This document shows positions 44,758 through 57,167 of a DNA stretch of 64,000 bases, one piece after another. Position 1 is the first letter of the stretch. The number at the start of each line of letters is the position of its first letter. The translations under genes were made by a program, and so were the position numbers. This stretch comes from a virus. The stretch lies in IMG/VR virus record IMGVR_UViG_3300027782_000044, positions 1-64,000 of that record, one strand, 5' to 3'. Below the pieces are notes generated by a model. That model ran no database searches and was not told the DNA's origin. It was given only the letters and a program-made list of their open reading frames with translations.

Positions 44758-44924
44758 TATTTCCTAAAAAATATCTTTTTAAATTTCCTTAACATATTAG
44801 AGGCAGATTGTTTATTTTTTTCATAAGCAGCGTCTGTTCTTTCAGTAAAGGCATGGCTCTTAAAGTACGGGTTGAATTGAAGGTCTGTAAAGTGCCTTCT
44901 AGGGATTCTTTTATAAGGAGTCAT
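44757..44924 (-). CDS. 55-aa basic protein
   Basis: Not in the track: MTPYKRIPRRHFTDLQFNPYFKSHAFTERTDAAYEKNKQSASNMLRKFKKIFFRK*; TAATG coupling to the LamG gene; TTGATT-16 nt-TATAAT promoter 7 nt before ATG. Confidence 0.7.
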   Translation of the reverse strand: MTPYKRIPRRHFTDLQFNPYFKSHAFTERTDAAYEKNKQSASNMLRKFKKIFFRK

Positions 44925-44955
44925 ATTTAATATTATACTACAACAACTGCCAAAA

Positions 44956-45420
44956 TCAAGAGTCTAGTTTTTTATCAATTCCCAGATTTGATAAGAATCT
45001 TTCTGGGTCAAATCTCCAATTATCTTTGGCAAATGAGGTCATTATTTCCATGCAGGTATCTTCGTATGCTTGAATTGAGATTAAAGGCTTTAATTTCAAT
45101 AGGGTCTCTGTGACATCAATATAATTTGTTCTTAAAAAGCTAGGGTCTCCAGCCTGATTTCTCTTAAAGACCTTTTCATTAATTCTTCCATTGGGCTCAT
45201 ACAATCTAACTGTTAGATACTGCTTTGCAAAGCCCCAGTCTTCATACATATTATATGCTTCTGCTGCTTCAATTGCGTTAGGAAAGAAGATAATTGATCT
45301 TGCTGGTTCTTCCCCGTCTCTTGCAATTGTAAGCATATAGGCATCACCTTTTTTATTAGCTACCGCTTCAAGATACTCTTTAACTACATCGTGATGCTCT
45401 TGCTTTAGTTGTCCGCTCAT
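44956..45420 (-). CDS. hypothetical protein
   Basis: Start MSGQL at 45420 via TAATG overlap with the methyltransferase stop. Confidence 0.7.
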   Translation of the reverse strand: MSGQLKQEHHDVVKEYLEAVANKKGDAYMLTIARDGEEPARSIIFFPNAIEAAEAYNMYEDWGFAKQYLTVRLYEPNGRINEKVFKRNQAGDPSFLRTNYIDVTETLLKLKPLISIQAYEDTCMEIMTSFAKDNWRFDPERFLSNLGIDKKLDS

Positions 45421-46007
45421 TACGTCCATCCCATGTTAAAATGTTCTCTATATTCTAGATAATCAATTGCATACGGGTCTACCCACCAGTCTTCATGCCA
45501 TTGCCTTACAACTAGCTTATAGCCGAGAGAGGATAAGATTTCTCGTTGGGCTTCTCTCATGCCTTTATTATTATATTCAATTTGGGCATCATGCTCAAAA
45601 GTTATTATAGAGTATCTGTATTTGCTTAATGGAACTGCTAATAGTCCATGCAGTGTTAGATAGGGATTTCCTACAGCATTTCCTTGTGGCGTATATCCAG
45701 CATCAATATCTACTTGCAGGTAATCAATTTGTTTTGGGAAATTATTTTCTTCAAAATATGAAAGGTAATTAAAATGCGTAGCATCTCCAAGGATACATGG
45801 GTTTTTTCTATTTGATACAAACTCTGCGTGTCTTTGCTTGTCTATCTCAAATGATACGCCGTTCCAATTATAGTCTGTTTCTAGATGATAGGTGTTGCTT
45901 CCTTGCTTTGAATCAAAAGCACCAAGCTCTACGTAAAACCCATTTTCTTTATTTTTAAGTAACTGAGTAACAAATCTTTCTTGACCACTATTACCTTTAT
46001 ATTCCAT
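45420..46007 (-). CDS. FkbM-family SAM-dependent methyltransferase-like protein
   Basis: GQE.FV...GFYVELGAFD...SNT..LE...NWNGVSFEID...IDYLQVDID...IITFEHD. Confidence 0.8.
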   Translation of the reverse strand: MEYKGNSGQERFVTQLLKNKENGFYVELGAFDSKQGSNTYHLETDYNWNGVSFEIDKQRHAEFVSNRKNPCILGDATHFNYLSYFEENNFPKQIDYLQVDIDAGYTPQGNAVGNPYLTLHGLLAVPLSKYRYSIITFEHDAQIEYNNKGMREAQREILSSLGYKLVVRQWHEDWWVDPYAIDYLEYREHFNMGWT

Positions 46008-46587
46008 TTATTTCTCCAAAAACATCTTTATTCAAAGACACAACTTCATTTAGTTTATGCTTTGCAAACATTGTAGATATGTATCTAGTTATATTATCTT
46101 GAACTGGAAGTGTTCCATGAAGTATCTCTCCAGCATGCAGAAGCAATGATCCTGCAATTGGTTTATGGGTTATCCCAAGATCTGGATACCTTAGCTCTCC
46201 GCCTTTATAGTCATCATTATAATAAATAACTACTCCATAAAAAACCTGTTCTCCATTAAGTCTGTGGCCATCATGATCATCTGTATGCTCACCAAGGGCA
46301 TCGTTTAGCATATATCTTTGAAGATTTATTCCAGTTACTTCTAGATTTCCATTAAATAAATTACAGACTCTTTTATATATATCACTAAATATAGACTCTT
46401 TATTTACTAAACTGCTATTTAAAACTTTGTCTGTCCAAAAATCATACTGTATACCCTCTTCAGACCAATCTAAATTATCTTTAGATTCAGCAAACTGCAT
46501 TACCTGATCAAGCTCGTCTTGTGTTATAAAATTTTGTATTTCATAAACTTGATCAGATAACTTTGCAATTTTATAGTCTAACATCAA
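45997..46587 (-). CDS. 2OG-Fe(II) oxygenase, prolyl-4-hydroxylase-like
   Basis: HTD...YYNDDYKGGEL...HGT...RY. Confidence 0.9.
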   Translation of the reverse strand: MMLDYKIAKLSDQVYEIQNFITQDELDQVMQFAESKDNLDWSEEGIQYDFWTDKVLNSSLVNKESIFSDIYKRVCNLFNGNLEVTGINLQRYMLNDALGEHTDDHDGHRLNGEQVFYGVVIYYNDDYKGGELRYPDLGITHKPIAGSLLLHAGEILHGTLPVQDNITRYISTMFAKHKLNEVVSLNKDVFGEINGI

Positions 46588-46592
46588 CTACA

Positions 46593-47351
46593 TTATTCTT
46601 GGTTTTGTTCGTGATAGGCCTTTATGTATTCTTCTGATGGTCCACCTGGGCCACCTACAACATAACCATCAACAAATATAAATCCAGGAGTAATAAACTT
46701 TTCTCCTTCTTTCATAATATGAACTTGGTGCTTGTATGGATCTGTAGATGGGAAAATTAATGCGCTTCCAGCTTTTGGCTTTGCAGTAAATGTGACCATG
46801 TCTTTAGTCCTTGGGTCTAGCGCATCATCTGGTGGTCTAAGATGACCATTCATTTCTAATCTTAGATCTTCTGGTCTAATAACAAACGATATTTCTCCGC
46901 CTTCATAGTCATCATTCCAGTAAATAATAATTGACCACTCTAGGCTATTATCTCCAGCTTGTCTATCAAAGTGAGCTCCCATTGCACAGCCTGGAATATA
47001 CTTTTGTATACCAACAAACGGTGATACGTTTGGAACTCCCTTAAGGCCTCGATCAACAATAAAAGACTCTGATATATTCTTAATAGCATTTCTAATTGTT
47101 GATATAATTAGGTCGACATCTTTTCTTAAATCATCATCTAGGTTTTCTACTTCAGAAAGGTTAAAATCTTTTTTCTTTCCAAAGATGTTGCCGTCTCTGC
47201 TACTTGAATTCCAGTTTTTCCAGCTTGGAATAACCTTATGAACTCTTTCATCAGAATCAAGCTTATTAACTAAATCAATAATTGCCTGGGGGTTCTCAAT
47301 TACATCTGAATACATGTAAACATTTTCATGTAATTTTTCTTCTAGCTTCAT
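46593..47351 (-). CDS. 2OG-Fe(II) oxygenase, prolyl-4-hydroxylase-like
   Basis: HFD...YWNDDYEGGEI...HQV...KF. Confidence 0.9.
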   Translation of the reverse strand: MKLEEKLHENVYMYSDVIENPQAIIDLVNKLDSDERVHKVIPSWKNWNSSSRDGNIFGKKKDFNLSEVENLDDDLRKDVDLIISTIRNAIKNISESFIVDRGLKGVPNVSPFVGIQKYIPGCAMGAHFDRQAGDNSLEWSIIIYWNDDYEGGEISFVIRPEDLRLEMNGHLRPPDDALDPRTKDMVTFTAKPKAGSALIFPSTDPYKHQVHIMKEGEKFITPGFIFVDGYVVGGPGGPSEEYIKAYHEQNQE

Positions 47352-48094
47352 TTGTCGTTCTCCTCTATTTTATATTTATTTCCATCTAGATCTATTCGGT
47401 ATCCTTCTTTTAATGCATCTTGCCATTCTGACTTTATAACTTCCTGCTCTTCTCTAATTTTTTTCATTTCTGCATCCCAAGCGTCTATTGTTTCTTGTGG
47501 ATATGATTCTGGTGACCGATCATCCCAAAATGAACCTAGGGTGTATCTTATTCCAGAAGTTATCATTGTAACCTCATGAGTATTATCAAAGCCTCCTGCA
47601 AAAGCTGCTAGCGTTCCAGTCTCTGGGACAAGTGTATGATTTTGCTTGTTAAATATTAACTGACCGCCCTCAAACTCATCATTTAAATACAAGAAGGCTG
47701 CGTATCTACTTCTTTCAAATGGGCCAGTGTTTCCCTGCAAATCTGTATTGTCAGAATGCTCTTTAGCATAAGCTCCTGGCTCCCACTTTTGAGCATGAAA
47801 TCCAATTTTATGAATATCAAATGAAGAATTTCCATGCACCTCAGCTACAGCATCAATAATTCTATTTTGAAGAACTGAAAAAAAATCTGATGGCAAGCCG
47901 AACTGCTCTAGTTCTTCATCTCCGTCTTGGGGCAAAACTGATGAGTATGATTCATAGAAAGTGATAGGTGTCCAAGATAGCTTTTCATTTGCAACCTGCG
48001 CTTCTAAAACTTTTATAATTGCGGAAGATTCTTCTTTTGTTAAAAAGTTTTTAAACACTAAAATATCTGGCGTTAATCTTTCTGAAATACTCAT
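47348..48094 (-). CDS. 2OG-Fe(II) oxygenase, prolyl-4-hydroxylase-like
   Basis: HSD...YLNDEFEGGQL...HEV...RY. Confidence 0.9.
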   Translation of the reverse strand: MSISERLTPDILVFKNFLTKEESSAIIKVLEAQVANEKLSWTPITFYESYSSVLPQDGDEELEQFGLPSDFFSVLQNRIIDAVAEVHGNSSFDIHKIGFHAQKWEPGAYAKEHSDNTDLQGNTGPFERSRYAAFLYLNDEFEGGQLIFNKQNHTLVPETGTLAAFAGGFDNTHEVTMITSGIRYTLGSFWDDRSPESYPQETIDAWDAEMKKIREEQEVIKSEWQDALKEGYRIDLDGNKYKIEENDK

Positions 48095-48822
48095 TTATTT
48101 ATATCTCCATCTAGTAGTGTTCTATGATATTTTTTATTTGGATCTGGTTGGTTTTCTCCAGTATGCTCTAAAATTTCCCAGAAAAATGGACAAGTGTATC
48201 TTATAGCACCTTTAATTTCAGTTACTCCGTGGATATAATTCATATCGCCTGGGAAAAAATAAGCTGCTCCCTTTTTAGGTTTAAATTGAACTCCCTGTAG
48301 TGGAAAATATAATTCCCCACCTTCGTAATCATCATTCAAATAAAATAAGCTTGATAGATCGTAGTATGGAAAATCATTTGGCAATCCAATATCTGGAAGT
48401 TCATGAAGCTCTTTATCTGCATGTGGTTTCTGGAACTGTCCAGGAAGCCAACGAACAATTGTTGTTCCAGTTGGAGTTACTTTAACTTTATAAAAATCTT
48501 CAACAATTGGTTTTAGTCTTTCAAACAAACCCTGGAGAACGGGCCTAATTGCTGGATCATTTTTGTCTAAAGATGGGCTTGTGCAGACTCTATCTTTCCA
48601 ATAATTATGATCATATACGGTTGTACCATTTTCATTTACATGGCTCTCCGTTACATCCCAAATGGTAATCTTTCTAGCAGCTGCTTCAAGAAACTCTATT
48701 TCTTCTTGTGTCATAAAGTTTTCTAGCTCAACTATCATGTCCTTGCCAGATCCAAAAAATCCAGATGGGGTTAAAGATGGAGTCTTGTATACGACTGAAG
48801 CGTCTTGATTTGTTTGATTCAT
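48091..48822 (-). CDS. 2OG-Fe(II) oxygenase, prolyl-4-hydroxylase-like
   Basis: HAD...YLNDDYEGGEL...HGV...RY. Confidence 0.9.
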   Translation of the reverse strand: MNQTNQDASVVYKTPSLTPSGFFGSGKDMIVELENFMTQEEIEFLEAAARKITIWDVTESHVNENGTTVYDHNYWKDRVCTSPSLDKNDPAIRPVLQGLFERLKPIVEDFYKVKVTPTGTTIVRWLPGQFQKPHADKELHELPDIGLPNDFPYYDLSSLFYLNDDYEGGELYFPLQGVQFKPKKGAAYFFPGDMNYIHGVTEIKGAIRYTCPFFWEILEHTGENQPDPNKKYHRTLLDGDINK

Positions 48823-48834
48823 ATTCTTATTATA

Positions 48835-49551
48835 TCATTTCTCATTGCTTGAAGTAAGGTCAGTAATTTTTAACTTTAAAGACTTAACCTCATGGCTTCC
48901 AAGGACGGTGCCATCGTAATCTACTGCATCTCTATAGAAATTTGTGAATCCACCTGATTGAGTAATTTTATCCCAGGCCTTAAGTCTCGCTTGTCTACGT
49001 ATATGCTCTGACTCAGTAAATACTTTATCTTTTACTTCGAGCTCTACATTTTGATACTCTGACAAAGATATAGGGATAAATGTTGCCACTGGCATGCCCG
49101 CTGGAATCTTTATAACAGTATTCGGTCTTGTTATTTTCCATGCAATTGGTATGCCCTCTTTTAAAACAGATGTTGAAATAATTGTTGTAAATGGAGTAGC
49201 TCCATCTACAAAAAAATTAGGAGGAACTATTTGAAGCATTGAAACATTTGGATCCGTCTCAAAGAAAAACCCAGAGTAAAAACTAATTGTGCCATTTGCT
49301 CTTTGGCCAGTAGCAACTTGTGCTGGATCCGATATTATCTTTACATGATCTGGAGTCGTATCTGAAATACCATCCCAACTGAACTCAATATCATCTAAAA
49401 ATGAGATTGACCAACCAATTGTATTTGCCAAAGAAACTGGAAAACATTTGTATGCATGGGCATTTAGAGTTTCATCCATCCAGTCTCTTTTAACTTTAGT
49501 TTGTTCTATTTTAGACCTAGTCTGTTTATTTTTATAGGCTGTTATTTTCAT
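48835..49551 (-). CDS. DUF6065-like protein
   Basis: RDWMD...HAYKCFPVSLANTIGW motif; IPAGMPVATFIP; start moved to MKITAY (49551). Confidence 0.7.
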   Translation of the reverse strand: MKITAYKNKQTRSKIEQTKVKRDWMDETLNAHAYKCFPVSLANTIGWSISFLDDIEFSWDGISDTTPDHVKIISDPAQVATGQRANGTISFYSGFFFETDPNVSMLQIVPPNFFVDGATPFTTIISTSVLKEGIPIAWKITRPNTVIKIPAGMPVATFIPISLSEYQNVELEVKDKVFTESEHIRRQARLKAWDKITQSGGFTNFYRDAVDYDGTVLGSHEVKSLKLKITDLTSSNEK

Positions 49552-50242
49552 TGATTTCGTTATCCCATTTTGGATCATACATCTCTTGAGTATGAAATTT
49601 TTTACTATAGTCAAGCATAGTTACTATAGAATATTTTGTTCCTTTGGTTACAGCTTTTGCTTGATGAGGGTACATAAAGTTAGATGGGAAAATATAAAGG
49701 TCTCCAGCTCTTGGCTTAATATCTAGGCCCTGAAGTCTAAAATACAATCCTCCATCATCATAGTCATCGTTAACATAACCAACCAAGGACACAACGCAAT
49801 TATAAGAATATCCGTGGTCTTGGTGCTCCATAAAATGTTGGCTTTCTCCATATTTAATAAAATTAAAAGCTTCCCAATATTTAAGCTCCATAATATTATG
49901 CGCTTTGCAGTAATCTACAACTACTGGATATTGAGCATCATAAACATCTTGCCATAGAGATTTTAACTTTTCAGCATCTTCACTTTTATCAAGAGCTATA
50001 TCGCTTTTTTTAAATTTGAAATCTACGCAATCTCTATAGTCTGGCATTAACTGTTGATACCCAACATAAGCTGGCTGATAAGAATATCTTTTTTCTTTAC
50101 TGCCAACTGGACCAACTGAGCCTTCAAGTCTATTTATAATGTCAAATTCTTTTTTTAATACGTCTCTATATACAAATATTCCAGGAGCCAACTCTTCTTT
50201 GCTACTCCATGTTGGAGATGTGCTTTTCTTTTCTGTTGTCAT
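49532..50242 (-). CDS. 2OG-Fe(II) oxygenase, prolyl-4-hydroxylase-like
   Basis: HQD...YVNDDYDDGGL...FPSNFMYPHQA...KYS. Confidence 0.9.
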   Translation of the reverse strand: MTTEKKSTSPTWSSKEELAPGIFVYRDVLKKEFDIINRLEGSVGPVGSKEKRYSYQPAYVGYQQLMPDYRDCVDFKFKKSDIALDKSEDAEKLKSLWQDVYDAQYPVVVDYCKAHNIMELKYWEAFNFIKYGESQHFMEHQDHGYSYNCVVSLVGYVNDDYDDGGLYFRLQGLDIKPRAGDLYIFPSNFMYPHQAKAVTKGTKYSIVTMLDYSKKFHTQEMYDPKWDNEINENNSL

Positions 50243-51000
50243 TTATATTCTCTCTTTTTCCAAATTTTTGACTTATACACTCCACCGTCGGGCTGACGAT
50301 AAAACTTTGCATTATCCATTAGTTTTTTTTGCATTTCTTTTACATCAAGATACTCAACTTCGTGGCTCCAGTCTTCTCTTTTAAATGGAAGTACTTGTAG
50401 AAATGGTGTGCCTTTTGGGACAGTTCCTTCCCAATCTTTTGCAATAAAAAATGGAAATGTACCAAGTAAGTGGACCTCATCATTATCAACAATACCGCTG
50501 GTATTCAAGAAAGGCAAATCAAATCTATTCATTGGTGTCATAAATAATGCACTGTATCCTTTTGGAACTTGAATTCCCCATTCTGGGTACCAAGCAAAAT
50601 GATCTTCGTGATAACCAACTGGAGATGGAAATTGCTGCATAGGAGGTCTTTCTGTTACAAAGCCTACATGCTTTTTATCTTTTATCTCTACAGATATTTT
50701 TCCCTTTTTATTTTTTGAAAAAAATAAATCGCATGGCGTGCTTAATACATATCCAGTCATAAATGCATCTAGTATTGCTGGGCAAGCCTTCCATGTTGGA
50801 ATTTTACCATAGTCATCTTTTGTGCCTTCCCTTGGGATAGGGCAAACCTCTTTAGTGGCTTTATAGTATTCTCCATTTGGCATTTTTGCAAATCTGTCCG
50901 CCTCTTTGTACCATTCAGGAATACTGCCCTGAGTTGGCTTTGGTAAAGAAGGGCTGAATTTATCTAGCCATGGTCTAAAAGATTGAAATAGTATTTTAAT
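50239..51000 (-). CDS. DUF6065-related protein (possible dUTPase-like beta fold); start uncertain
   Basis: TWKACPAILDAFMTGY, SGIVDND, VPKGTPFLQVLPFKRE. The frame is open upstream of the first ATG (50883) and reads IKILFQSFRPW...PKPTQGSIPEWYK. Confidence 0.65.
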   Translation of the reverse strand: MKILFQSFRPWLDKFSPSLPKPTQGSIPEWYKEADRFAKMPNGEYYKATKEVCPIPREGTKDDYGKIPTWKACPAILDAFMTGYVLSTPCDLFFSKNKKGKISVEIKDKKHVGFVTERPPMQQFPSPVGYHEDHFAWYPEWGIQVPKGYSALFMTPMNRFDLPFLNTSGIVDNDEVHLLGTFPFFIAKDWEGTVPKGTPFLQVLPFKREDWSHEVEYLDVKEMQKKLMDNAKFYRQPDGGVYKSKIWKKREYK

Positions 51001-51700
51001 ATTTTTGTCCAGTCTCTTCTTTATGATAGAGATCGTTATAATCCATCATAATAACTACAGAATATTTTGTTCCAGATGATATATTTAAAGAAGCATGCTC
51101 GTAAACAAAGTTAGATGGAAACAGTATTATATCTCCTGCTTTTGGTTTTAAAATCATATCATGTCTTGGAAATTCAATTTCTCCGCCCACGTAATCATCA
51201 TTTAAATATACAACTGCTGATACCGTACATGTGTAATATGGACCATGGTCAGCATGTATTTTAAAAAACTCTCCTGGTAAATATTTTACAAAGTTAAATG
51301 CTTCTTTATAATTAATATTAAAATTCCATTCTGATTCATAATGTCTTAATGCTTTATTTAATCCAATATCAACAATATCATAGCATTCTCTTAAAACATC
51401 ACTGTCAGAAATATATTTACCAATTTGATCTTTTTTAAATTTTAAATCATAACAATTTCTGGCATGAGTAGTTCTATCTTTTCCATTAACTCTTGCGCCA
51501 TTCCATTGAATTCCAACTTTTTCTAAAGATATTTCTTCTTCAAGCATGGCAATTAGATTTTGGCAGTCTTCTTTACTTATTGCATTTCTATAAAGATTTA
51601 TCCCGTATTCAAGGTTTTCAACAACAATGTTTTCATCAATTTTTTTTGATTCAACTCTTGAAGTTGTTTTTTCAATTCTTGGTAGGTCATACCATTCCAT
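50996..51700 (-). CDS. 2OG-Fe(II) oxygenase, prolyl-4-hydroxylase-like
   Basis: HAD...YLNDDYVGGEI...FPSNFVYEHAS...KYS. Confidence 0.9.
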   Translation of the reverse strand: MEWYDLPRIEKTTSRVESKKIDENIVVENLEYGINLYRNAISKEDCQNLIAMLEEEISLEKVGIQWNGARVNGKDRTTHARNCYDLKFKKDQIGKYISDSDVLRECYDIVDIGLNKALRHYESEWNFNINYKEAFNFVKYLPGEFFKIHADHGPYYTCTVSAVVYLNDDYVGGEIEFPRHDMILKPKAGDIILFPSNFVYEHASLNISSGTKYSVVIMMDYNDLYHKEETGQKY

Positions 51701-51762
51701 AGTATCTCATTTCTACTATAACATCTTATCATACTATTCAAGAAAAGAAAAGTATATTTTAT

Positions 51763-53361
51763 TTAGTATCCTCTAAAGTATGGGAAGTACGGTCCGCCGC
51801 CAAAACTTGGGAAGAACGGTGGGAAGAACGGTCCAAATGATGGGAAGTATGGTGGGAAGAACGGTCCAAATAATGGGAAGAACGGGAAGCTTGGTCCCTT
51901 AAAGAACGGGAAGTATGGTGGGAAGAACGGCGGGAAGAATGGTGGGAAGAATGGGAAGAACGGTGGGAAGAACGGCGGGAAGAATGGTGGGAAGAATGGT
52001 GGGAAGAATGGGAAGAAGGGTGGGAAGAACGGTGGGAAGAACGGTGGGAAGAACGGTGGGAAGAATGGGAAGAACGGTGGGAAGAACGGTGGGAAGAACG
52101 GGAAGAACGGTGGGAAGAATGGTGGGAAGAATGGGAAGAACGGTGGGAAGAACGGTGGGAAGAACGGTGGGAAGAACGGTGGGAAGAACGGCGGGAAGAA
52201 TGGGAAAAACGGAGCTATGGTAGTAATATTAGCACTATTATTTGAAGCTAAAGATGTTCCATTAGCATTAGTTGCTGTAGCTGAATATGTTTGAGAAGTA
52301 TTTGCTGTATCAGCAATAATAGTAGTTGTTGCATTTGCTGCTAGGTTTCCAGATACAGAAGCATCTGATCCAGTAACATTGTGCCGTGTTAATGCAGATC
52401 CTCCAGAAGCTCCTATTTGCCAGTTAATTGTATTTTGATTAACGCCAGCTGTTGCTGTTAAGTTTTGTGGTGCTTGAGGAACTGTAGTTGCCGTAACTGA
52501 ACTTGATGTTGTGGCTTCTGATGTTCCATTAGCATTTGTTGCTGTTACGCTAAAAGTATAAGCTGTTGCTGAGCTAAGACTTTGAATGGTTATTGGGGAA
52601 GCTCCAGAACCAGTAAGAGCGCCAGATGTGGCAGTATAAGAGGTAATTGCAGAACCACCAGTAGCGCCGCCAGTTGCTGTAATGGTTACTGCACCATTAT
52701 TATATGCTCGACCAATTCCTACGTCTGCTACTGTTACAGTTGGTGCTTGAGGAACTGTAGTTGCCGTAACTGAACTTGATGTTGTGGCTGCTGATATTCC
52801 ATTAGCATTTGTTGCTGTTACGCTAAAAGTATAAGCTGTTGCTGATGCAAGGCCTCCAATAGTTAATGGAAGTAATCCCGAACCACTAAGAGCTCCAGAT
52901 GTAACAGTGTAAGCGGTAATTGCAGAACCACCAGTGGCGCCACCTGTTGATGCTAAAGTTATTGCACCATCATTATATGCTCGTCCTGTTCCTACATTTG
53001 TTGCTGTTATTGTTGGTGCTTGAGGAACTGTAGTAACGGTAATAGCTCCAGTTGCTGCTGAAACAATTGAGGTTCCTGCTGCATTTGATGCTGTCATGCT
53101 AAATGTTGGAGTTGCTCCAGAAGCAATTCCTTCAACAGTAATTGGTGAAGAAGATCCTGTTCCTGTTTGGCCAGTACTTGCTGTTACTGTAAAAGATGTT
53201 GCTGCAGGGGATGCTGCTGGTAAAGTAAAGGTTATTGTCACCGCTCCATTATTAAATGGTCGAGATGTTCCAACGTTTGAAGCTCCAGTAATTGTTGGTT
53301 GGCTTGGCTCTAAGAAATTATCTTGAGCCGATGATTTTATACCTCTTCTTTTACTTGCCAT
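51763..53361 (-). CDS. FN3-repeat virion-type protein with a C-terminal Pro/Phe repeat tail
   Basis: About four FN3-like units (PQAPT...GGSAIT.YT...YTFSVTATNANG.S), then 146 aa almost entirely P/F/Y/G/S. Confidence 0.85.
   Translation of the reverse strand: MASKRRGIKSSAQDNFLEPSQPTITGASNVGTSRPFNNGAVTITFTLPAASPAATSFTVTASTGQTGTGSSSPITVEGIASGATPTFSMTASNAAGTSIVSAATGAITVTTVPQAPTITATNVGTGRAYNDGAITLASTGGATGGSAITAYTVTSGALSGSGLLPLTIGGLASATAYTFSVTATNANGISAATTSSSVTATTVPQAPTVTVADVGIGRAYNNGAVTITATGGATGGSAITSYTATSGALTGSGASPITIQSLSSATAYTFSVTATNANGTSEATTSSSVTATTVPQAPQNLTATAGVNQNTINWQIGASGGSALTRHNVTGSDASVSGNLAANATTTIIADTANTSQTYSATATNANGTSLASNNSANITTIAPFFPFFPPFFPPFFPPFFPPFFPPFFPFFPPFFPPFFPFFPPFFPPFFPFFPPFFPPFFPPFFPPFFPFFPPFFPPFFPPFFPPFFPFFPPFFPPFFPPYFPFFKGPSFPFFPLFGPFFPPYFPSFGPFFPPFFPSFGGGPYFPYFRGY
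51775..52212 (-). repeat. 12/9-bp tandem repeat encoding (PPFF)/(PFF)n
   Basis: Plus-strand units (t/c)gggaagaa(c/t)gg and gggaagaa(t/c); degenerates to PPYF/GPFF/PSF at the C terminus. Confidence 0.98.
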
Positions 53362-53388
53362 TCATTTAACCCCTATCCATTTATTTTA

Positions 53389-56300
53389 TTATGCGCTTAG
53401 ATCTCCAGCAAGTAACCATGTGTCTGTTGCGACCTTAGTTAATGTTGCTGATGAGTATGTTGTTCTTAATTTTAAACCTGGTGTACGAAGAATTGTGACT
53501 CCTACTGCTTCAACAAAGTTTGCACCTGTTCCAGCTGATTGATAGAAATCAATTGATGTTCCAATTGGGAAAGCTAATGTTGCATTTGTTGGCACTGTCA
53601 CTGCAAATGTTCCTGAAATTGGAATTAACTGATCTCTTAATGTAAGACCATGAGTTGGACCTGAAACTCCACCTGTTCCTAGGTTATATGCTGCTCCAAT
53701 TGTTGTTCCAATTGTTGTAAGTGATGGTACGCCAGCTTTTGTTTGTGTTCCATCTGTAAATGCTACGCCTGCTGCTGCAACTGTTACTGTACCAGTAAAT
53801 GTTGGTGAAGCAAGTGGAGCTTTTAGGCCAATGCTATTTGTAATTGTTGTTGAGAATGATGCATCATTTCCAAGAGCAGTTGCCAACTCATTAAGAGTAT
53901 TAAGAGCTGCTGGTGCTGATGCTACAAGATCTGACACTGCTGTTCCTACAAATGCTGTAGTTGCAACTTGTGTAGTATTTGTTCCAGCTGTTGCTGTTGG
54001 GGCTGTTGGAACACCTGTAAGTGCTGGTGAGGAAAGCGGTGCTTTCAAATCAAGTGCGGATGTTAGCCCTGAAATTTTAGATTGTGCAATTGCGGCTGAG
54101 GCGCTTATGTCTCCATCTACAATTGTTAAATCTGCAATCTTTGCTGAAGTAACTGCAGAATCTGCAATTTTTGCAGTTGATACAGCTACGTCTGCAATAT
54201 CTGCTGTTGCAACTGCTCCGTCAGCAATCATTCCAGTAGTAATTGTTCCAGTAGGAAGAGTTACTGTACCAGTAAATGTTGGTGATGCTAGTGGGGCATA
54301 TGTTGAGGCTGCAGTTGCTGAAGATAACTTAGTATCAATCTGAGTTTGAATGGCTGATGTTACTCCATTTACATATCCAAGTTCTGTTGCATCAACTGTT
54401 GAAGAGATTGCTAACTTAGTCCAATCAATTGCTGCTGTGGCATTTATATCAGAGTTAACAATTGTGCCTGCAACAATTTTTGCAGAAGTAATTGAATCGT
54501 CTGCAATTTTAGCAGTAGTTATTGCTGCATCTGCAATTTTTGCAGTTGATACAGCTACGTCTGCAATATCTGCTGTTGCAACTGCTCCGTCAGCAATCAT
54601 TCCAGTAGTAATTGTTCCAGTAGGAAGAGTTACTGTACCAGTAAATGTTGGTGAGGCTAATGGTGCTTTAAGATCAAGCGCTGTCTGAGTAGCAGTTGAT
54701 ATTGGCTTAGCTGCGTCTGAAGTATCGTCAGCATTTGTTAATCCTACCATTGCTTTAGTAACACCAGATACTGTACCAGTAAATGTTGGTGATGCAATTG
54801 GTGCTTTGAGGTCAAGTGCTGTCTGAGTAGCAGTTGATATTGGCTTTCCCAAATCTGATGTATTATTAACATTTGATAAGCCAACATCTGACTTTACAAT
54901 TCCAGTTGGTGTAGTAATTGATGGAGATGTAAGTGTTTTGTTAGTTAATGTTTGTGTACCAGATAGCGTTGCTACTGTTGAATCAATATCAATTGTAATT
55001 GTATTTGCTACATCATCATATACTTTATCTAAACCATTTCCAGCAATTATTGCTGTATTAACAGCATCTTGAGCCAGCTCTGTTATAGCAGAAGAATCTG
55101 CTTTTAGGTCAAGCGCTGTCTGAGTAGCAGTTGATATTGGCTTAGCTGCGTCTGAAGTGTTATCTACAGATCCAAGACCAACCATTGCTTTAGTAACACC
55201 AGATACTGTACCAGTAAATGTTGGTGATGCAATTGGTGCTTTAGAGTCAATTTGAGTTTGAATAGCTGAAGTAACTCCATTTACATATCCAAGTTCTGTT
55301 GAATCAACTAAACCTATTGATGTTGTCGAAGGCAGTGTAACTGTACCAGTAAATGTTGGTGCTGCTAATGGTGCCTTAAGATCAAGCGCTGTCTGAGTAT
55401 CAGTTGATATTGGCTTAGCTGCGTCTGAAGTGTTATCTACAGATCCAAGACCAACGTCTGCTTTAACTAAGCCAGATGGAGAGGTAATTGTTTTATTTGT
55501 AAGAGTTTGAGTTTCAGTTGTTCCAACAACTACTCCTGGAAGGCTTTTGCCTAAAACAGTAGTTAATGTCAGGATATCAATATTATTTATTTTAACTGTT
55601 TTATCAGCAGGAAGATTAATGTTTTCTGAAAAATCCCATGCCGATTTTGCAACACTATATTTAATTGACTTATCTGTTGTTCCCTTTAATATAATTCCAC
55701 CAGTATCTGCTCCTGCATCAGTTGGACTTGATGTTTGTCCTAAAACAATATCCTTGTCTTGAACAGTAAGGGTTGTTGAGTTAATTGTTGATGTCGTTCC
55801 ATTTACTGTCAAGTTGCCAGAAAGTGTTAGATTAACTGCAGTTGCATCTCCAGTAATTGCTGGTGAATTTAGTGGAGCTTTTAAGTCTAAAGCTACAAGA
55901 GTAGCATTTGATACTGGCTTCAAGGCATCTGATGTATTATCTACATTTGAAAGTCCTACTGAAGATTTTGTAAGTGCTGATACTGCAGTTGATATTTTAG
56001 TGTCTGCTGCAGTTCCAGATGAGGCAATTGCTTCTGATTTAGCAGTAGCTACGTTTGCTGTAGTTGCTAGTAGTGAAGTATTTGCAATTCCGTGAATATT
56101 AGTAGTATCTAATTCGTGTGTTGAAAGTGCTGATGCTGCTGCGGCAATTGCTGCATCTTGAGCTGTATTAGCTTTTGCAGTTGCATCAGTTCCCGCTGCT
56201 GTAATGGCTTCTGATTTAGCAGTAGCTACATTTGTTGTAGTTGCAAGAGCGGCTGTATCTGCAATACCGTGTACGCCAGTTGTATCAGATTCGTGAGTTG

Positions 56301-56748
56301 CGATTGCAGCAGAAATAGCTGCTGTTGCTGATATTTCCCGCCAGTTACCATTTGTACTTGCAGGGGAAGAAGCAAGTACATATGTTGTGCCGTTGTCTGA
56401 CTGAATTGCAATATCTCCAGGTTCTGCTGTTAAAGCCAAACGTGCAGCTTGGTTAGCTGCTGAAGAAACTGTTACTTTAGCAAGTGGGGGTAGCTGTGCT
56501 GAAGGAATAAATCCTGATGAGTCTAATGAGGCAACTCCATTTGCAACACCTTTAGTGCTTAAAAGAATATAATCGTCTACCGTTTGTGAGAGAGCATAAC
56601 TTAATGAATTCCAAGGGGTGCTTCCATCTCCAAATTTAAATGTGTTGGTATCTGTTTCAATACCAATTTCTCCTGCTGCTAGTGTTGGGTTGGCGGCATC
56701 CCATTGATCTGCTTCGCCTCTTCTTAATTGTAATCTAACTGTTGCCAT
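53389..56748 (-). CDS. long fibre protein with an Mtd-N-like N-terminal domain
   Basis: LQLRRG...W.AANPTLAAGEIGIETDT..FKFGDG..PWNSL; repeated KAPLASPTFTGTV and DNTSDAAKPISTATQTALDLK; C-terminal DTWLLAGDL. Confidence 0.85.
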   Translation of the reverse strand: MATVRLQLRRGEADQWDAANPTLAAGEIGIETDTNTFKFGDGSTPWNSLSYALSQTVDDYILLSTKGVANGVASLDSSGFIPSAQLPPLAKVTVSSAANQAARLALTAEPGDIAIQSDNGTTYVLASSPASTNGNWREISATAAISAAIATHESDTTGVHGIADTAALATTTNVATAKSEAITAAGTDATAKANTAQDAAIAAAASALSTHELDTTNIHGIANTSLLATTANVATAKSEAIASSGTAADTKISTAVSALTKSSVGLSNVDNTSDALKPVSNATLVALDLKAPLNSPAITGDATAVNLTLSGNLTVNGTTSTINSTTLTVQDKDIVLGQTSSPTDAGADTGGIILKGTTDKSIKYSVAKSAWDFSENINLPADKTVKINNIDILTLTTVLGKSLPGVVVGTTETQTLTNKTITSPSGLVKADVGLGSVDNTSDAAKPISTDTQTALDLKAPLAAPTFTGTVTLPSTTSIGLVDSTELGYVNGVTSAIQTQIDSKAPIASPTFTGTVSGVTKAMVGLGSVDNTSDAAKPISTATQTALDLKADSSAITELAQDAVNTAIIAGNGLDKVYDDVANTITIDIDSTVATLSGTQTLTNKTLTSPSITTPTGIVKSDVGLSNVNNTSDLGKPISTATQTALDLKAPIASPTFTGTVSGVTKAMVGLTNADDTSDAAKPISTATQTALDLKAPLASPTFTGTVTLPTGTITTGMIADGAVATADIADVAVSTAKIADAAITTAKIADDSITSAKIVAGTIVNSDINATAAIDWTKLAISSTVDATELGYVNGVTSAIQTQIDTKLSSATAASTYAPLASPTFTGTVTLPTGTITTGMIADGAVATADIADVAVSTAKIADSAVTSAKIADLTIVDGDISASAAIAQSKISGLTSALDLKAPLSSPALTGVPTAPTATAGTNTTQVATTAFVGTAVSDLVASAPAALNTLNELATALGNDASFSTTITNSIGLKAPLASPTFTGTVTVAAAGVAFTDGTQTKAGVPSLTTIGTTIGAAYNLGTGGVSGPTHGLTLRDQLIPISGTFAVTVPTNATLAFPIGTSIDFYQSAGTGANFVEAVGVTILRTPGLKLRTTYSSATLTKVATDTWLLAGDLSA
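54161..54654. repeat. ~125-bp exact direct repeat inside the fibre gene (54161-54285 and 54530-54654)
   Basis: tctgcaatttttgcagttgatacagctacg...ccagtaaatgttggtga occurs twice. Confidence 0.9.
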
Positions 56749-56801
56749 TTTGTTACCCCTTATATATTTTATTTATACTGCTTATTGTATCATTTATTGC
56801 T

Positions 56802-57167
56802 TTAAGATATGACTCCAGAGTCAAAAACCATAGAAACGTCGGCATCTGTAGAAGATGGAGACCCACCATCTACAAACTTGCTTGTTCCAGCAGGGTTTAC
56901 TCCATTTGCTTGAACTGTATAGATTGGTTGACCATTATAATCAATAGCTAAGCCAATATCCATAAAACTAACCTGTGAAGCTATGTCTGGAATCTCTGAA
57001 TTAAGTGCAATTGGAACCCAAGTTCCATTTATCTGAAGTTGCAACTTATTTGTTACTGTATCAAATCTAAGGGGTGTTTCGCCTAAAATGACATTAGACC
57101 CAAATGTGGCAGTGCCTGCTACATTGAGTCCGTTCTTTACTTTAAAATTCTTATTTTCTGTTGCCAT
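56802..57167 (-). CDS. small fibre-associated protein
   Basis: N terminus MATENKNFKVKNGL paralogous to 57237..58727; DGG motif. Confidence 0.7.
   Translation of the reverse strand: MATENKNFKVKNGLNVAGTATFGSNVILGETPLRFDTVTNKLQLQINGTWVPIALNSEIPDIASQVSFMDIGLAIDYNGQPIYTVQANGVNPAGTSKFVDGGSPSSTDADVSMVFDSGVIS

What the first reader, a model, noticed from the sequence alone, without database searches (positions are those of the whole stretch)
45420..53361. Candidate virion-protein modification system: (PPFF)n substrate gene followed by six prolyl-hydroxylase-like oxygenases, two DUF6065-like proteins and a methyltransferase
Seen: an FN3 protein ends in 146 residues of PPFF/PFF repeats. The next nine genes are co-oriented and mostly overlapping: six 2OG-Fe(II) oxygenases, each with an intact HxD...H triad and basic 2OG-binding residue, two DUF6065-like proteins and an FkbM-type methyltransferase. 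Established: this oxygenase class includes prolyl 4-hydroxylases acting on Pro-rich repeats (collagen, extensins), and FkbM-type enzymes are O-methyltransferases. Inference: the layout resembles a RiPP cluster (repetitive substrate plus tailoring enzymes), but the substrate is a structural protein. The six divergent paralogs could hydroxylate different Pro or Phe positions, followed by methylation or glycosylation, giving a chemically modified virion-surface polymer (adhesion, stiffness or protease resistance). Oxygenase arrays beside fibre genes are known in aquatic phages, but to my knowledge without an assigned substrate; here a candidate sits next to them.
Basis: partly seen in the sequence, partly recalled or inferred. 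Interest (0 to 1): 0.92.

Follow-up and report, generated by a model that had tools for sequence, protein, structure and literature searches.

The report
Phage Pro-Phe fibre with hydroxylase array
An uncultured lake phage encodes a fibre-like protein ending in a long proline-phenylalanine repeat, followed directly by six prolyl-hydroxylase-like enzymes; the same pairing recurs in many related phage contigs, which gives the abundant but unexplained phage prolyl hydroxylases a candidate substrate.

Summary
A 532-aa FN3 protein (51763-53361, minus strand) ends in about 147 residues of PPFF/PFF repeats. Nine tightly packed co-oriented genes follow: six PF13640 oxygenases with an invariant HxD...H, two homologous DUF6065-like proteins, and a 195-aa protein whose FkbM assignment is only weakly supported.

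- Forward: among viral contigs found only by a (PPFF)4 DNA pattern, 60 of 74 repeat genes have an oxygenase within 3 kb downstream, against 1 of 47 upstream.
- Reverse: among contigs found only by DUF6065 homology, 52 of 52 have a Pro/aromatic-repeat gene just upstream.
- Joint absence: a sister clade (portal 77-80% identical) has neither.

The ox6 model matches protein prolyl hydroxylases (Z 16-18). The DUF6065 model has a dUTPase-like fold. In relatives the module also carries AspH-like, sulfotransferase, GlcNAc-transferase and radical-SAM/SPASM genes.

The best reading is a conserved phage module that hydroxylates, and in some lineages further tailors, Pro-Phe repeats of virion fibre proteins. 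No chemistry has been shown, and no cultured phage with a duf1-type or near-identical module was found in the phage collection searched. An earlier scan note on this same genome made the same reading (e1-6150005). I found nothing in print on it.

The parts
51763..53361 (-). FN3-(PPFF)n protein, 532 aa. N-terminal FN3-like repeats are followed by a C-terminal Pro/Phe polymer of about 147 residues. This is the candidate substrate.
   Evidence: ORF and translation; fn3 39.5 bits; homologs with the same architecture in many viral contigs.
51766..52212 (-). DNA that encodes the PPFF/PFF repeat tail: 12-nt units with 9-nt variants, all in frame.
   Evidence: Tandem Repeats Finder period 12, 25.7 copies; sequence; Pro/aromatic-rich segment at residues 372-532; a 3-nt in-frame length variant at 52109 in contigs of two runs.
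50996..51700 (-). ox6, a P4H-like 2OG-Fe(II) oxygenase next to the repeat gene (62-nt gap).
   Evidence: PF13640 42.2 bits. In alignment A5, H149/D151/H202 are invariant and K212 nearly invariant. Model pLDDT 83.7. Foldseek top hits are algal P4H with (Ser-Pro)5 at 7e-11 and PBCV-1 vCPH at 1e-10. VIA Z is 18.4-16 to prolyl hydroxylases.
50239..50883 (-). duf2, a DUF6065-like protein of the remote subfamily.
   Evidence: PHROG 7084 at 6e-32; no Pfam hit; hhalign 95% to the duf1 subfamily; orthologs in 27 of 118 (PPFF)n loci.
49532..50242 (-). ox5, a P4H-like oxygenase in the same subfamily as ox6 (36% identity).
   Evidence: PF13640 45.9 bits; alignments A5 and A7.
48835..49614 (-). duf1, a DUF6065 protein with a predicted dUTPase-like beta-barrel. 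Its start codon is uncertain.
   Evidence: PF19541 117 bits. Model pLDDT 77.8. VIA wide search gives Z 11.0 to EIAV dUTPase; of the 13 chains at Z 8 or more, 12 are dUTPases and one is the HCMV tegument protein pp71. Foldseek 2.5e-4.
48091..48822 (-). ox4, a P4H-like oxygenase. Its subfamily is the commonest one next to short PPxF proteins in relatives.
   Evidence: PF13640 34.7 bits; PDB phmmer hits to B. anthracis P4H, PBCV-1 P4H and P3H1; census.
47348..48094 (-). ox3, a P4H-like oxygenase.
   Evidence: PF13640 37.4 bits; triad in A7.
46593..47351 (-). ox2, a P4H-like oxygenase with an insertion of about 27 residues in the barrel.
   Evidence: PF13640 36.7 bits; A7.
45997..46587 (-). ox1, a P4H-like oxygenase and the most divergent of the six (21% identity to ox6).
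   Evidence: PF13640 30.0 bits; A7.
45420..46007 (-). 195-aa accessory protein, possibly an FkbM-like methyltransferase. The assignment is weak.
   Evidence: No family hit for the window protein. 8 of 14 homologs hit PF05050 weakly, best E 0.0067. Atlas lead scores 0.97 to a cluster with 52% PF05050. Present in 4 of 118 (PPFF)n loci.
10562..13315 (-). Second Pro/Phe-repeat protein of the same genome, 917 aa, in the tail module. An internal run of eight PFFP units links two domains, 38 kb from the enzyme array.
   Evidence: Genome-wide scan found two Pro/aromatic-repeat ORFs among 1752 ORFs; translation. A homologous family of 9 large proteins in other contigs is never adjacent to the array.
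53389..56748 (-). Tail-fibre protein directly upstream, 1119 aa. It is context that places the module inside the virion structural block.
   Evidence: PHROG tail-fibre families; homologs upstream of the repeat gene in 74 of 118 loci.

Best explanation
This is a conserved phage module for post-translational tailoring of a virion fibre protein.

Proposed working:
- The FN3-(PPFF)n protein, and probably the second Pro/Phe-linker tail protein of the genome, is made late with the tail fibres.
- The adjacent P4H-like 2OG-Fe(II) oxygenases hydroxylate prolines of the Pro-Pro-aromatic-Phe repeats while these are in an extended polyproline-II-like state. They use Fe(II), 2-oxoglutarate and O2.
- The two DUF6065 proteins have a dUTPase-like beta-barrel and no evident dUTPase motifs. 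They act as non-catalytic or unknown-chemistry partners, perhaps holding the very hydrophobic repeat.
- Lineage-specific accessory enzymes add further groups. Here that is a possible methyltransferase. In relatives they are sulfotransferase, AspH-like hydroxylase, GlcNAc-transferase and radical-SAM/SPASM genes.
- The likely result is a stiffer, more soluble or more adhesive stalk or linker on the virion.

Shown: gene content, catalytic residues, fold class, and a very tight, directional, evolutionarily retained linkage of repeat gene and enzymes.

Inferred: that the repeat is the substrate, that the reaction is prolyl hydroxylation, the role of DUF6065, and the effect on the virion.
For: 1. 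Linkage, forward. 117 of 118 read it as PPFF inside an ORF. 60 of 74 repeat ORFs with 3 kb or more of downstream flank have an oxygenase within 3 kb downstream. The internal control is 1 of 47 upstream.
2. Linkage, reverse. DUF6065 homology alone found at least 585 contigs. In the best 80, 52 of 52 with 1.5 kb or more upstream carry a Pro/aromatic-rich ORF on the same strand within 3 kb, mostly under 100 nt away. Only 191 of 29,271 ORFs pass that detector.
3. The linkage survives change of repeat type (PPFF/PFF, PP[YHW]F, xFFAPP, CPFFPNF) and enzyme divergence. The 230 DUF proteins fall into 73 clusters at 70% identity and 10 at 50%.
4. Concordant absence. Of 39 portal-anchored loci, 28 have 3 or more oxygenases and the repeat is seen in 25 of them. 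The other 11 (portal 77-80% identical) have no repeat ORF and carry Gly-rich proteins instead. Five whole records of that clade have 0/5 PF13640 and 0/5 FFPPFFP pattern.
5. Enzyme class. All six pass PF13640 and keep HxD...H. The ox5/ox6 profile hits B. anthracis P4H at 9.5e-7, LH3 at 1e-5, and P3H1. The ox6 model best matches peptide-bound prolyl hydroxylases.
6. Accessory genes inside the module in relatives belong to families with members that act on proteins or peptides. They are AspH PF05118, Sulfotransfer_2, GlcNAc-T PF11397, and a radical-SAM/SPASM gene that sits between a repeat gene with a Cys-rich tail and ox6.
7. Position inside the structural block, right after tail-fibre genes.
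8. Precedent. [quoted passage not shown]
Against: - No chemical evidence of any kind exists.
- The counts are not phylogenetically independent. Most linked repeat proteins share one FN3-type N-terminal family (106 of 133), and the presence/absence split is essentially one clade boundary.
- The module also holds AMG-like genes: glutathione-peroxidase-like (the commonest accessory), TauD, PhyH, SDR, IMPDH and Trp halogenase. This fits a hypervariable metabolic island.
- 14 of 74 repeat ORFs lack an oxygenase within 3 kb downstream. When the whole records of 14 such loci were searched, 8 had no PF13640; all 8 are fragments, 4-48% complete.
- Some sister-clade loci keep DUF6065-like genes with few or no oxygenases and no repeat (L294, L295, L297, L300).
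- In the five bacterial DUF6065 loci examined, no oxygenase lies within about 6 kb.
- A halovirus homolog of duf2 lies beside thymidylate synthase and DNA polymerase.
- For the PBCV-1 precedent, hydroxyproline was not detected in virions (PMC7019647).
Confidence: 0.55

Rival explanations
1. Metabolic or host-takeover island. The oxygenases and neighbours are auxiliary genes that act on host proteins (for example translation factors) or small metabolites. They sit next to the repeat gene only because this is the insertion-tolerant end of the tail-fibre block in one phage lineage.
For: - Relatives carry glutathione-peroxidase-like, TauD, PhyH, SDR, IMPDH and Trp-halogenase genes in the same stretch.
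- Three more oxygenase-like ORFs lie elsewhere in this genome.
- Phage P4H genes are usually listed as AMGs of cryptic use (PMC9301287, passages seen).
- Structural matches include P. putida P4H bound to EF-Tu.
- The counts are phylogenetically non-independent.
Against: - Adjacency is mostly under 100 nt and directional: 60/74 downstream against 1/47 upstream.
- The reverse test is 52/52.
- The pairing is retained down to about 44-50% DUF6065 identity and across different repeat types.
- Repeat and enzymes are lost together in the sister clade.
- Downstream flanks vary while the repeat-plus-enzyme core stays: LamG in 6, the 157-aa gene in 4 and the MT-like gene in 4 of 118 loci.
Confidence: 0.2
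2. The enzymes modify other virion proteins, such as the large tail fibres upstream. The Pro/Phe-repeat protein is a bystander, or a scaffold or adaptor for those enzymes.
For: - Tail-fibre homologs lie upstream of the repeat gene in 74 of 118 loci.
- The module is inside the structural block.
- The enzymes must act in trans anyway if the second repeat protein at 10562-13315 is also a target.
Against: - The sister clade keeps fibre-like and LamG-like genes upstream of the portal but has neither the enzymes nor the repeat.
- The feature that co-varies with the enzymes is the Pro/aromatic repeat.
- The fibre at 53389-56748 carries no Pro/aromatic-rich segment; only two ORFs of the genome do.
Confidence: 0.1
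3. Nucleotide or DNA modification system. DUF6065 is a dUTPase-family nucleotide enzyme and the oxygenases act on bases or nucleotides, as TET/JBP enzymes do.
For: - The DUF6065 model has a dUTPase-like fold, Z 11.0.
- The halovirus duf2 homolog lies next to thymidylate synthase and DNA polymerase.
- ox1 and ox4 give weak sub-threshold Tet_JBP hits: 20.1 and 17.7 bits against a cut-off of 34.9.
Against: - Across the 20-sequence alignment A1 only C57, G67 and P175 are invariant, and I saw no dUTPase motif (the motifs are recalled, not formally tested).
- The ox6 fold and profile match protein prolyl/lysyl hydroxylases first.
- The module sits among structural genes, not replication genes.
- It co-varies with a repeat protein.
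Confidence: 0.05

Closest known systems
PBCV-1 (chlorovirus) prolyl 4-hydroxylase and its proline-rich repeat peptide substrates
   Same: It is a virus-encoded small P4H of the same fold class. PBCV-1 vCPH 5c5t is the second Foldseek hit for ox6 at 1e-10, with VIA Z 16.4. [quoted passage not shown]
   Different: PBCV-1 is a eukaryotic giant virus with one enzyme. As far as I recall there is no adjacent substrate gene, no DUF6065 partner, and repeats of another type (PAPK-like, recalled). Hydroxyproline was not detected in its virions. Here a bacteriophage has 2-9 paralogs per module, and the candidate substrate gene lies directly upstream.
Collagen / hydroxyproline-rich glycoprotein maturation: collagen P4H, P3H and lysyl hydroxylase LH3; plant and algal P4H with extensin-type repeats followed by O-glycosylation
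   Same: Repetitive Pro-rich structural proteins are hydroxylated by several 2OG oxygenases of this clan, then glycosylated. The ox5/ox6 profile hits B. anthracis P4H, LH3 and P3H1. The top structural hit is algal P4H with a (Ser-Pro)5 peptide. Two related modules carry a PF11397 GlcNAc-transferase.
   Different: There is no Gly-X-Y or Ser-Pro(n) motif. The repeat is Pro-Pro-aromatic-Phe, half aromatic. I saw no PDI-like subunit or peptide-substrate-binding domain. The setting is the cytoplasm of a bacterium.
RiPP biosynthetic gene clusters
   Same: The candidate substrate gene is followed by a co-oriented, overlapping set of tailoring enzymes, with a conserved core and variable accessory enzymes. 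One relative has a radical-SAM/SPASM gene next to a repeat gene with a Cys-rich tail.
   Different: The substrate is a 120-1500 aa structural protein with folded domains, not a leader-core peptide. No leader, protease or exporter was identified. This is an analogy of layout, not membership.
2OG-Fe(II) oxygenase / P4HA 'auxiliary metabolic genes' of cyanophages and other aquatic phages
   Same: Same Pfam family. The nearest cultured-phage relatives of ox6 are cyanophage, Methylophilales-phage and pelagiphage oxygenases at 24-29% identity. Their role is described as cryptic (PMC9301287).
   Different: Those genes are usually scattered, with no proposed substrate. Here they form an array with DUF6065 proteins next to a repeat protein. 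Whether cyanophage oxygenases have similar repeat partners was not tested.

Membership tests
2OG-Fe(II) oxygenase, P4H-type (Pfam PF13640 2OG-FeII_Oxy_3) | Sequence match above the curated gathering score | tested here: met
   6 of 6 array genes score 30.0-45.9 bits against a cut-off of 27. A six-frame search of the genome finds 7 places over the cut-off, 5 of them in the array; the sixth array gene, ox1, was not among them.
2OG-Fe(II) oxygenase, P4H-type (Pfam PF13640 2OG-FeII_Oxy_3) | HxD...H iron-binding triad | tested here: met
   H149, D151 and H202 (ox6 numbering) are invariant in the six paralogs and in 24 ox5/ox6-type sequences.
2OG-Fe(II) oxygenase, P4H-type (Pfam PF13640 2OG-FeII_Oxy_3) | Basic residue after the distal His that binds the 2OG C5 carboxylate. 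That Lys at His+10 is the collagen P4H arrangement is recalled. | tested here: met
   K212 (His+10) is nearly invariant in A5. K or R stands at the matching place in five of the six paralogs in A7; in ox1 an R lies nearby but out of register.
Protein prolyl hydroxylase (functional class) | Double-stranded beta-helix fold closest to peptide-bound prolyl hydroxylases | tested here: met
   ox6 model pLDDT 83.7. Foldseek gives 3gze 7e-11, 5c5t 1e-10 and PHD2 2e-10. VIA Z is 18.4 (6f0w), 18.2 (3gze) and 17.9 (4iw3). Only ox6 was modelled.
Protein prolyl hydroxylase (functional class) | Hydroxylation of peptidyl proline | not testable with these tools
   Needs an enzyme assay or mass spectrometry.
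DUF6065 (Pfam PF19541) | Sequence match above the gathering score | tested here: met
   duf1 scores 117 bits against 26.6. duf2 has no Pfam hit even at E 10, but it is a remote homolog by profile comparison: hhalign 95%, E 3.7e-8.
dUTPase / dCTP deaminase superfamily | Jelly-roll beta-barrel fold of dUTPase | tested here: met
   duf1 model: Z 11.0, rmsd 3.9, 118 residues aligned to 1dun. Of the 13 chains at Z 8 or more, 12 are dUTPases and one is HCMV pp71.
dUTPase / dCTP deaminase superfamily | Conserved dUTPase catalytic motifs | tested here: inconclusive
   Only C57, G67 and P175 are invariant in the 20-sequence alignment. I saw no motif resembling those I recall for dUTPases, but no formal motif test was run.
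FkbM-family methyltransferase (Pfam PF05050 Methyltransf_21) | Sequence match above the gathering score | tested here: not met
   The window protein has no hit at E up to 10. 8 of 14 homologs give only sub-threshold hits, best E 0.0067. NCBIfam gives none. The Atlas feature lead scores 0.97 to a cluster in which 52% carry PF05050. It may work like one, but membership is not shown.
Fibronectin type III domain (PF00041) | Sequence match above the gathering score | tested here: met
   39.5 bits against 25 for the repeat protein. FN3 is also found in repeat proteins of relatives.
Collagen-like protein | Gly-X-Y triplet repeats | tested here: not met
   The tail is PPFF/PFF with no regular Gly. One relative gave a sub-threshold Collagen hit: 19.3 bits against 27.2.
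RiPP biosynthetic cluster | Short precursor with a leader and core peptide, recognised by tailoring enzymes | tested here: not met
   The candidate substrates are 120-1566 aa proteins with folded domains. No leader was identified. The resemblance is one of layout only.

The most novel reading that the evidence does not exclude
Phages of freshwater bacteria build a hydroxyproline-rich, aromatic 'synthetic-looking' polymer on their virions, a prokaryotic-virus counterpart of extensins or mussel adhesive proteins.
- Pro-Pro-aromatic-Phe repeats in fibre proteins are multiply hydroxylated by a dedicated array of P4H-like paralogs working with dUTPase-fold DUF6065 partners.
- Depending on lineage, the repeats are then methylated, sulfated, GlcNAc-ylated or thioether-crosslinked.
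- In some lineages a Hint-like domain processes them at the C terminus.

If so, this would explain a share of the abundant, unexplained phage 'P4HA' genes as virion-maturation enzymes rather than metabolic genes.
Probability: 0.25. Interest if true: 0.9.

Novelty: new variant of a known kind. Interest (0 to 1): 0.8.

Why it matters
P4H-like 2OG oxygenases are among the most frequent 'auxiliary' genes in aquatic viromes. One survey found P4HA in 62% of water stations and called its use by viruses cryptic (PMC9301287, passages seen).

If the repeat is hydroxylated, three things follow.
- Part of this gene class moves from 'host metabolism' to 'virion protein maturation'.
- Enzymatic hydroxylation joins the known chemistry of phage particles.
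- A new kind of Pro-aromatic structural repeat is defined, together with a first functional context for DUF6065.

It is also a simple system for enzymology: short repetitive peptides and small soluble enzymes.

Tried and rejected
- Near-identical DNA in cultured phages: none (megablast). duf1 protein against cultured phages: none. So I found no cultured phage with a duf1-type or near-identical module on which to test virions. duf2 has only 25-31% identical homologs in 49 haloarchaeal virus records.
- Complex prediction of ox6 (alignment A5) with residues 378-425 of the repeat protein: verdict 'no answer', score 0.00, controls not run. This is evidence neither way.
- Promoter/terminator scan of 44700-57000: 43 promoter-like sites against 42.0 expected and 7 terminator-like sites against 8.4 expected. 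Uninformative.
- PDB searches for the 195-aa protein: no convincing hit by sequence and none by profile.
It worked with the closer alignment A3, so the reverse test samples only the duf1-type subfamily and the 80 best of at least 585 hits.
- RNA libraries: two lake-water metatranscriptome runs hold a few 60-331 nt contigs that match ox3, duf2, ox6 and the repeat gene, at a small share (0.06) of the sampled words. Contigs in an RNA library do not prove transcription, so I draw no conclusion.
- (PPFF)4 pattern in 185,579 species genomes: 10 stretches, all in MAG contigs. Six look phage-like, and five of these carry oxygenase or DUF6065 genes in the stretch held. Four are short ORFs without enzymes. 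No host could be read from this.
- Bacterial DUF6065 context: 19 of 301 Pseudomonadota genomes have the family over the cut-off. In the five loci examined no oxygenase lay within about 6 kb, so bacterial context gave no functional clue.
- First strict regex for the reverse test, (P1-2[FYHW]F) three or more times, wrongly scored many loci as lacking a repeat. Inspection showed variant repeats, and I replaced it with a composition detector. The detector thresholds were chosen after seeing these cases.
- Literature: 'DUF6065' gave 0 papers. 'PPFF'+'phage' gave 2 irrelevant papers. A search on repeat strings returned 412 papers; none of the 25 listed was relevant. Five-term searches on phage prolyl hydroxylase and structural-protein modification gave 0 and nothing relevant. 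Subscription journals are not covered and supplementary files were not consulted.
I reran it in two parts.

Full report
**What is there**

The window is the first 64 kb of a 116.5-kb viral record, estimated 97% complete. The region sits in the virion structural block, all on the minus strand. Tail-fibre genes lie at 53389-56748 and 57237-58727. The portal, protease/scaffold and capsid genes lie at 38.5-42.6 kb. The genome carries a WhiB gene. That fits the earlier scan note calling it a lake phage of actinobacteria, which I did not test further.

The ORF 51763-53361 encodes 532 aa. It has FN3-like repeats (fn3 39.5 bits) and a C-terminal tail of about 147 residues made of PPFF and PFF units. 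The tail degenerates to PPYF, GPFF and GPYF at the end. At DNA level it is a 12-nt tandem array with 25.7 copies at 86% matches, and its 9-nt variants keep the frame.

Nine co-oriented genes follow, with 4-11 nt overlaps or short gaps:
- six oxygenases, each over the PF13640 gathering score;
- two DUF6065-like proteins;
- a 195-aa protein.

The six oxygenases are only 21-36% identical to ox6, yet H149, D151 and H202 are invariant. In 24 members of the ox5/ox6 subfamily the Lys ten residues after the distal His is nearly invariant. I recall this as the collagen P4H arrangement.

duf1 matches PF19541 at 1e-33. duf2 does not reach any Pfam model, but it shares PHROG 7084, and its profile aligns to the duf1 profile with 95% probability.

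The FkbM label of the last gene is weak:
- the window protein has no family hit;
- 8 of 14 homologs give sub-threshold PF05050 hits;
- there is one feature-based Atlas lead.

**Is the repeat linked to the enzymes beyond this genome?**

I scanned IMG/VR for DNA that can encode (PPFF)4, without regard to gene calls. In 117 of them the PPFF frame lies in an ORF, usually as the C-terminal tail of a 120-1566 aa protein.

I then built an HMM from the window's oxygenases and their hits. With it, 60 of 74 repeat ORFs that have 3 kb or more of downstream DNA have an oxygenase within 3 kb downstream. Only 1 of 47 with 3 kb or more upstream has one upstream. At 5 kb the figures are 41/47 and 1/21.

The 14 exceptions include repeat ORFs that stand far from the array in contigs that do carry one (L051, L085, L116), loci where DUF6065-like genes come first (L017, L023), and large tail proteins with the repeat as an internal linker. 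I searched the whole records of 14 loci without an adjacent oxygenase. Ten of these are among the 14 exceptions. L020, L102 and L122 have under 3 kb of downstream flank, and L067 is a further locus without an oxygenase in the stretch held. Six records have PF13640 elsewhere. The eight without are fragments, 4-48% complete.

For the reverse direction I searched by DUF6065 (duf1-type) homology alone. At least 585 contigs encode a relative. Each of the best 80 has 2-8 oxygenases and 1-3 DUF6065 genes. My first strict regex missed many repeats. Inspection showed variant units: xFFAPP, CPFFPNF/CPAF, and repeats followed by another domain.

With a composition detector, all 52 loci that have 1.5 kb or more upstream of the first enzyme carry a Pro/aromatic-rich ORF. 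The detector asks for a 30-aa window with at least 30% Pro, at least 30% F/Y/W/H and at least 20% Phe. The ORF is on the same strand, within 3 kb and mostly within 100 nt. The detector is specific: 191 of 29,271 ORFs pass it. Its thresholds were set after I had seen the variants.

For a presence/absence test I anchored on the portal gene. Of the 39 loci with 9 kb or more upstream:
- 28 (portal 81% identical or more) have 3 or more oxygenases. A repeat ORF is seen in 25 of them. In the other three the array runs to, or close to, the edge of the fetched DNA.
- 11 (portal 77-80% identical) have 0-1 oxygenase and no repeat ORF. Gly-rich proteins occupy the corresponding place in several of them.

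Five whole records of that clade, 33-72% complete, have neither PF13640 nor an FFPPFFP-coding pattern.

So repeat and enzymes are present together and absent together. The caveat is that this is essentially one clade boundary. Most linked repeat proteins also share one FN3-type N-terminal family (106 of 133). The numbers therefore overstate the count of independent events. Against pure inheritance of synteny, three points stand:
- the DUF6065 proteins of these loci fall into 73 clusters at 70% identity and 10 at 50%;
- gene order and strand of the first oxygenase vary;
- downstream flanks vary while the repeat-enzyme core persists.

**What the proteins look like**

A profile of the ox5/ox6 subfamily finds B. 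anthracis P4H (9.5e-7), collagen lysyl hydroxylase LH3 (1e-5), PKHD hydroxylases and P3H1. The ox6 model (pLDDT 83.7) matches algal P4H bound to (Ser-Pro)5, PBCV-1 P4H, PHD2 with HIF peptides, and bacterial P4Hs. Foldseek E-values start at 7e-11 and VIA Z is 18.4-16.

The duf1 model (pLDDT 77.8) has a dUTPase-like beta-barrel. Z is 11.0, and of the 13 chains at Z 8 or more, 12 are dUTPases and one is the HCMV tegument protein pp71. The family keeps very few invariant residues, and I saw none of the dUTPase motifs I recall. I read it as an exapted scaffold of unknown role.

The wider context of DUF6065 is not informative. It occurs in 19 of 301 sampled Pseudomonadota genomes, with no oxygenase nearby in the five loci examined. 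A halovirus duf2 homolog lies beside thymidylate synthase, at the border with baseplate genes.

**More context**

The genome holds a second repeat protein, at 10562-13315, 917 aa, in the tail module. Eight PFFP units link two domains in it. Homologous large proteins in other contigs are never next to the array. So if the enzymes act on the repeat, they act in trans on a motif.

In relatives the module also carries:
- AspH-family and Sulfotransfer_2 genes between the repeat gene and the array;
- PF11397 GlcNAc-transferases. I recall this family as the Skp1 hydroxyproline GlcNAc-transferase family;
- a radical-SAM/SPASM gene between a repeat gene with a Cys-rich tail and ox6.

The same stretches also hold glutathione-peroxidase-like, TauD, PhyH, SDR and other genes typical of phage metabolic islands.

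Some repeat proteins continue into a C-terminal domain with sub-threshold Hint/intein hits.

**Reading**

The best-supported explanation is a conserved virion-protein tailoring module. P4H-like enzymes hydroxylate prolines of Pro-Pro-aromatic-Phe repeats in fibre or linker proteins, with DUF6065 partners and lineage-specific extra enzymes. I put this at 0.55. The rivals are:
- a metabolic island beside the fibre genes (0.2);
- other virion proteins as the targets (0.1);
- nucleotide chemistry (0.05).

The complex prediction gave no answer. RNA-library contigs were too sparse to use.

**Known and new**

Viral P4H acting on Pro-rich repeats is known from PBCV-1, though hydroxyproline was not found in its virions (PMC7019647, passages). 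Multi-enzyme hydroxylation of repetitive structural proteins is textbook for collagen and plant or algal hydroxyproline-rich glycoproteins. In phages, P4H-like genes are abundant and their use is called cryptic (PMC9301287, passages).

I found nothing in print on Pro-Phe repeat proteins of phages, on DUF6065, or on this pairing. The library lacks most subscription journals, and I saw no supplements.

I class it as a new variant of a known kind: a phage version with a new repeat type, a multi-paralog array and a new partner family. It is of high interest because it makes the function of phage P4H genes directly testable.

Noticed in passing
window 10562-13315 (-): A 917-aa tail-module protein carries eight PFFP units as an internal linker before a C-terminal FN3-like domain, 38 kb from the enzyme array. 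Homologs in other contigs (L015, L016, L022, L068, L077, L080) use the repeat the same way.
   Followed up: partly
L013, L038, L055, L056, L072, L075, L089, L163, L164, L170-L176, L183, L188, L190, L195, L201, L203 (repeat ORFs): In many relatives the Pro/Phe repeat is followed by a C-terminal domain of about 150 aa that starts with Cys and ends in HN-like residues. It gives sub-threshold Intein_splicing, PT-HINT and Hint_2 hits. This suggests autoproteolytic processing, or ligation, at the end of the repeat.
   Followed up: partly
L163, L164, L183, L188, L201, L203 (between repeat gene and array): Two extra genes recur between Hint-type repeat genes and the oxygenase array. One is a Sulfotransfer_2 protein (31 bits against 22) and the other an AspH-family hydroxylase (44.4 bits against 22.6).
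   Followed up: partly
L054:9174-10172 (-): A radical-SAM/SPASM gene sits between a repeat gene whose tail ends in a Cys-rich stretch and the first oxygenase. Several other repeat proteins also end in Cys-rich domains.
   Followed up: no
L079:2565-3584 (-), L149:3366-4376 (+): PF11397 'GlcNAc' glycosyltransferases lie inside two related modules: 90.8 and 54.4 bits against a cut-off of 21.
   Followed up: no
L109:9271-9912, L059:10365-10979, L081:8519-9406 and their clusters: Glutathione-peroxidase-like (thioredoxin-fold) genes are the most frequent non-oxygenase accessory genes inside the modules. Their clusters hold 13, 8 and 6 ORFs.
   Followed up: no
L294-L311 (portal 77-80% identical): A sister clade lacks both the oxygenases and the Pro/Phe repeat. 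In several of its loci (L296, L302, L307) one or more Gly-rich proteins (long GGGxG runs) lie upstream of the portal instead. L294, L297 and L300 keep a single DUF6065-like gene without oxygenases, and L295 has three with one oxygenase.
   Followed up: partly
L216 (halovirus HSTV-2, gene 40) and 48 other haloarchaeal virus records: duf2 has 25-31% identical homologs in cultured haloarchaeal tailed viruses. In HSTV-2 the homolog is annotated hypothetical and lies beside thymidylate synthase and DNA polymerase, next to the baseplate block.
   Followed up: partly
window 52109: Contigs of two lake metatranscriptome runs show the same 3-nt in-frame deletion inside the repeat. So repeat length varies in natural populations without breaking the frame.
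   Followed up: no
G000:C1:66405-67064 (+), 85643-86446 (-), 88507-89346 (-): Three further oxygenase-like ORFs lie outside the array, beyond the window. They are not next to any Pro/Phe-repeat gene.
   Followed up: no
window 42994-44757 (-): A 587-aa LamG/concanavalin-like protein (Laminin_G_3, 55.3 bits) lies between the array and the portal. Homologs occur in 6 of 118 (PPFF)n loci, and LamG-sized proteins of 582-612 aa sit at the same place in the sister clade.
   Followed up: no
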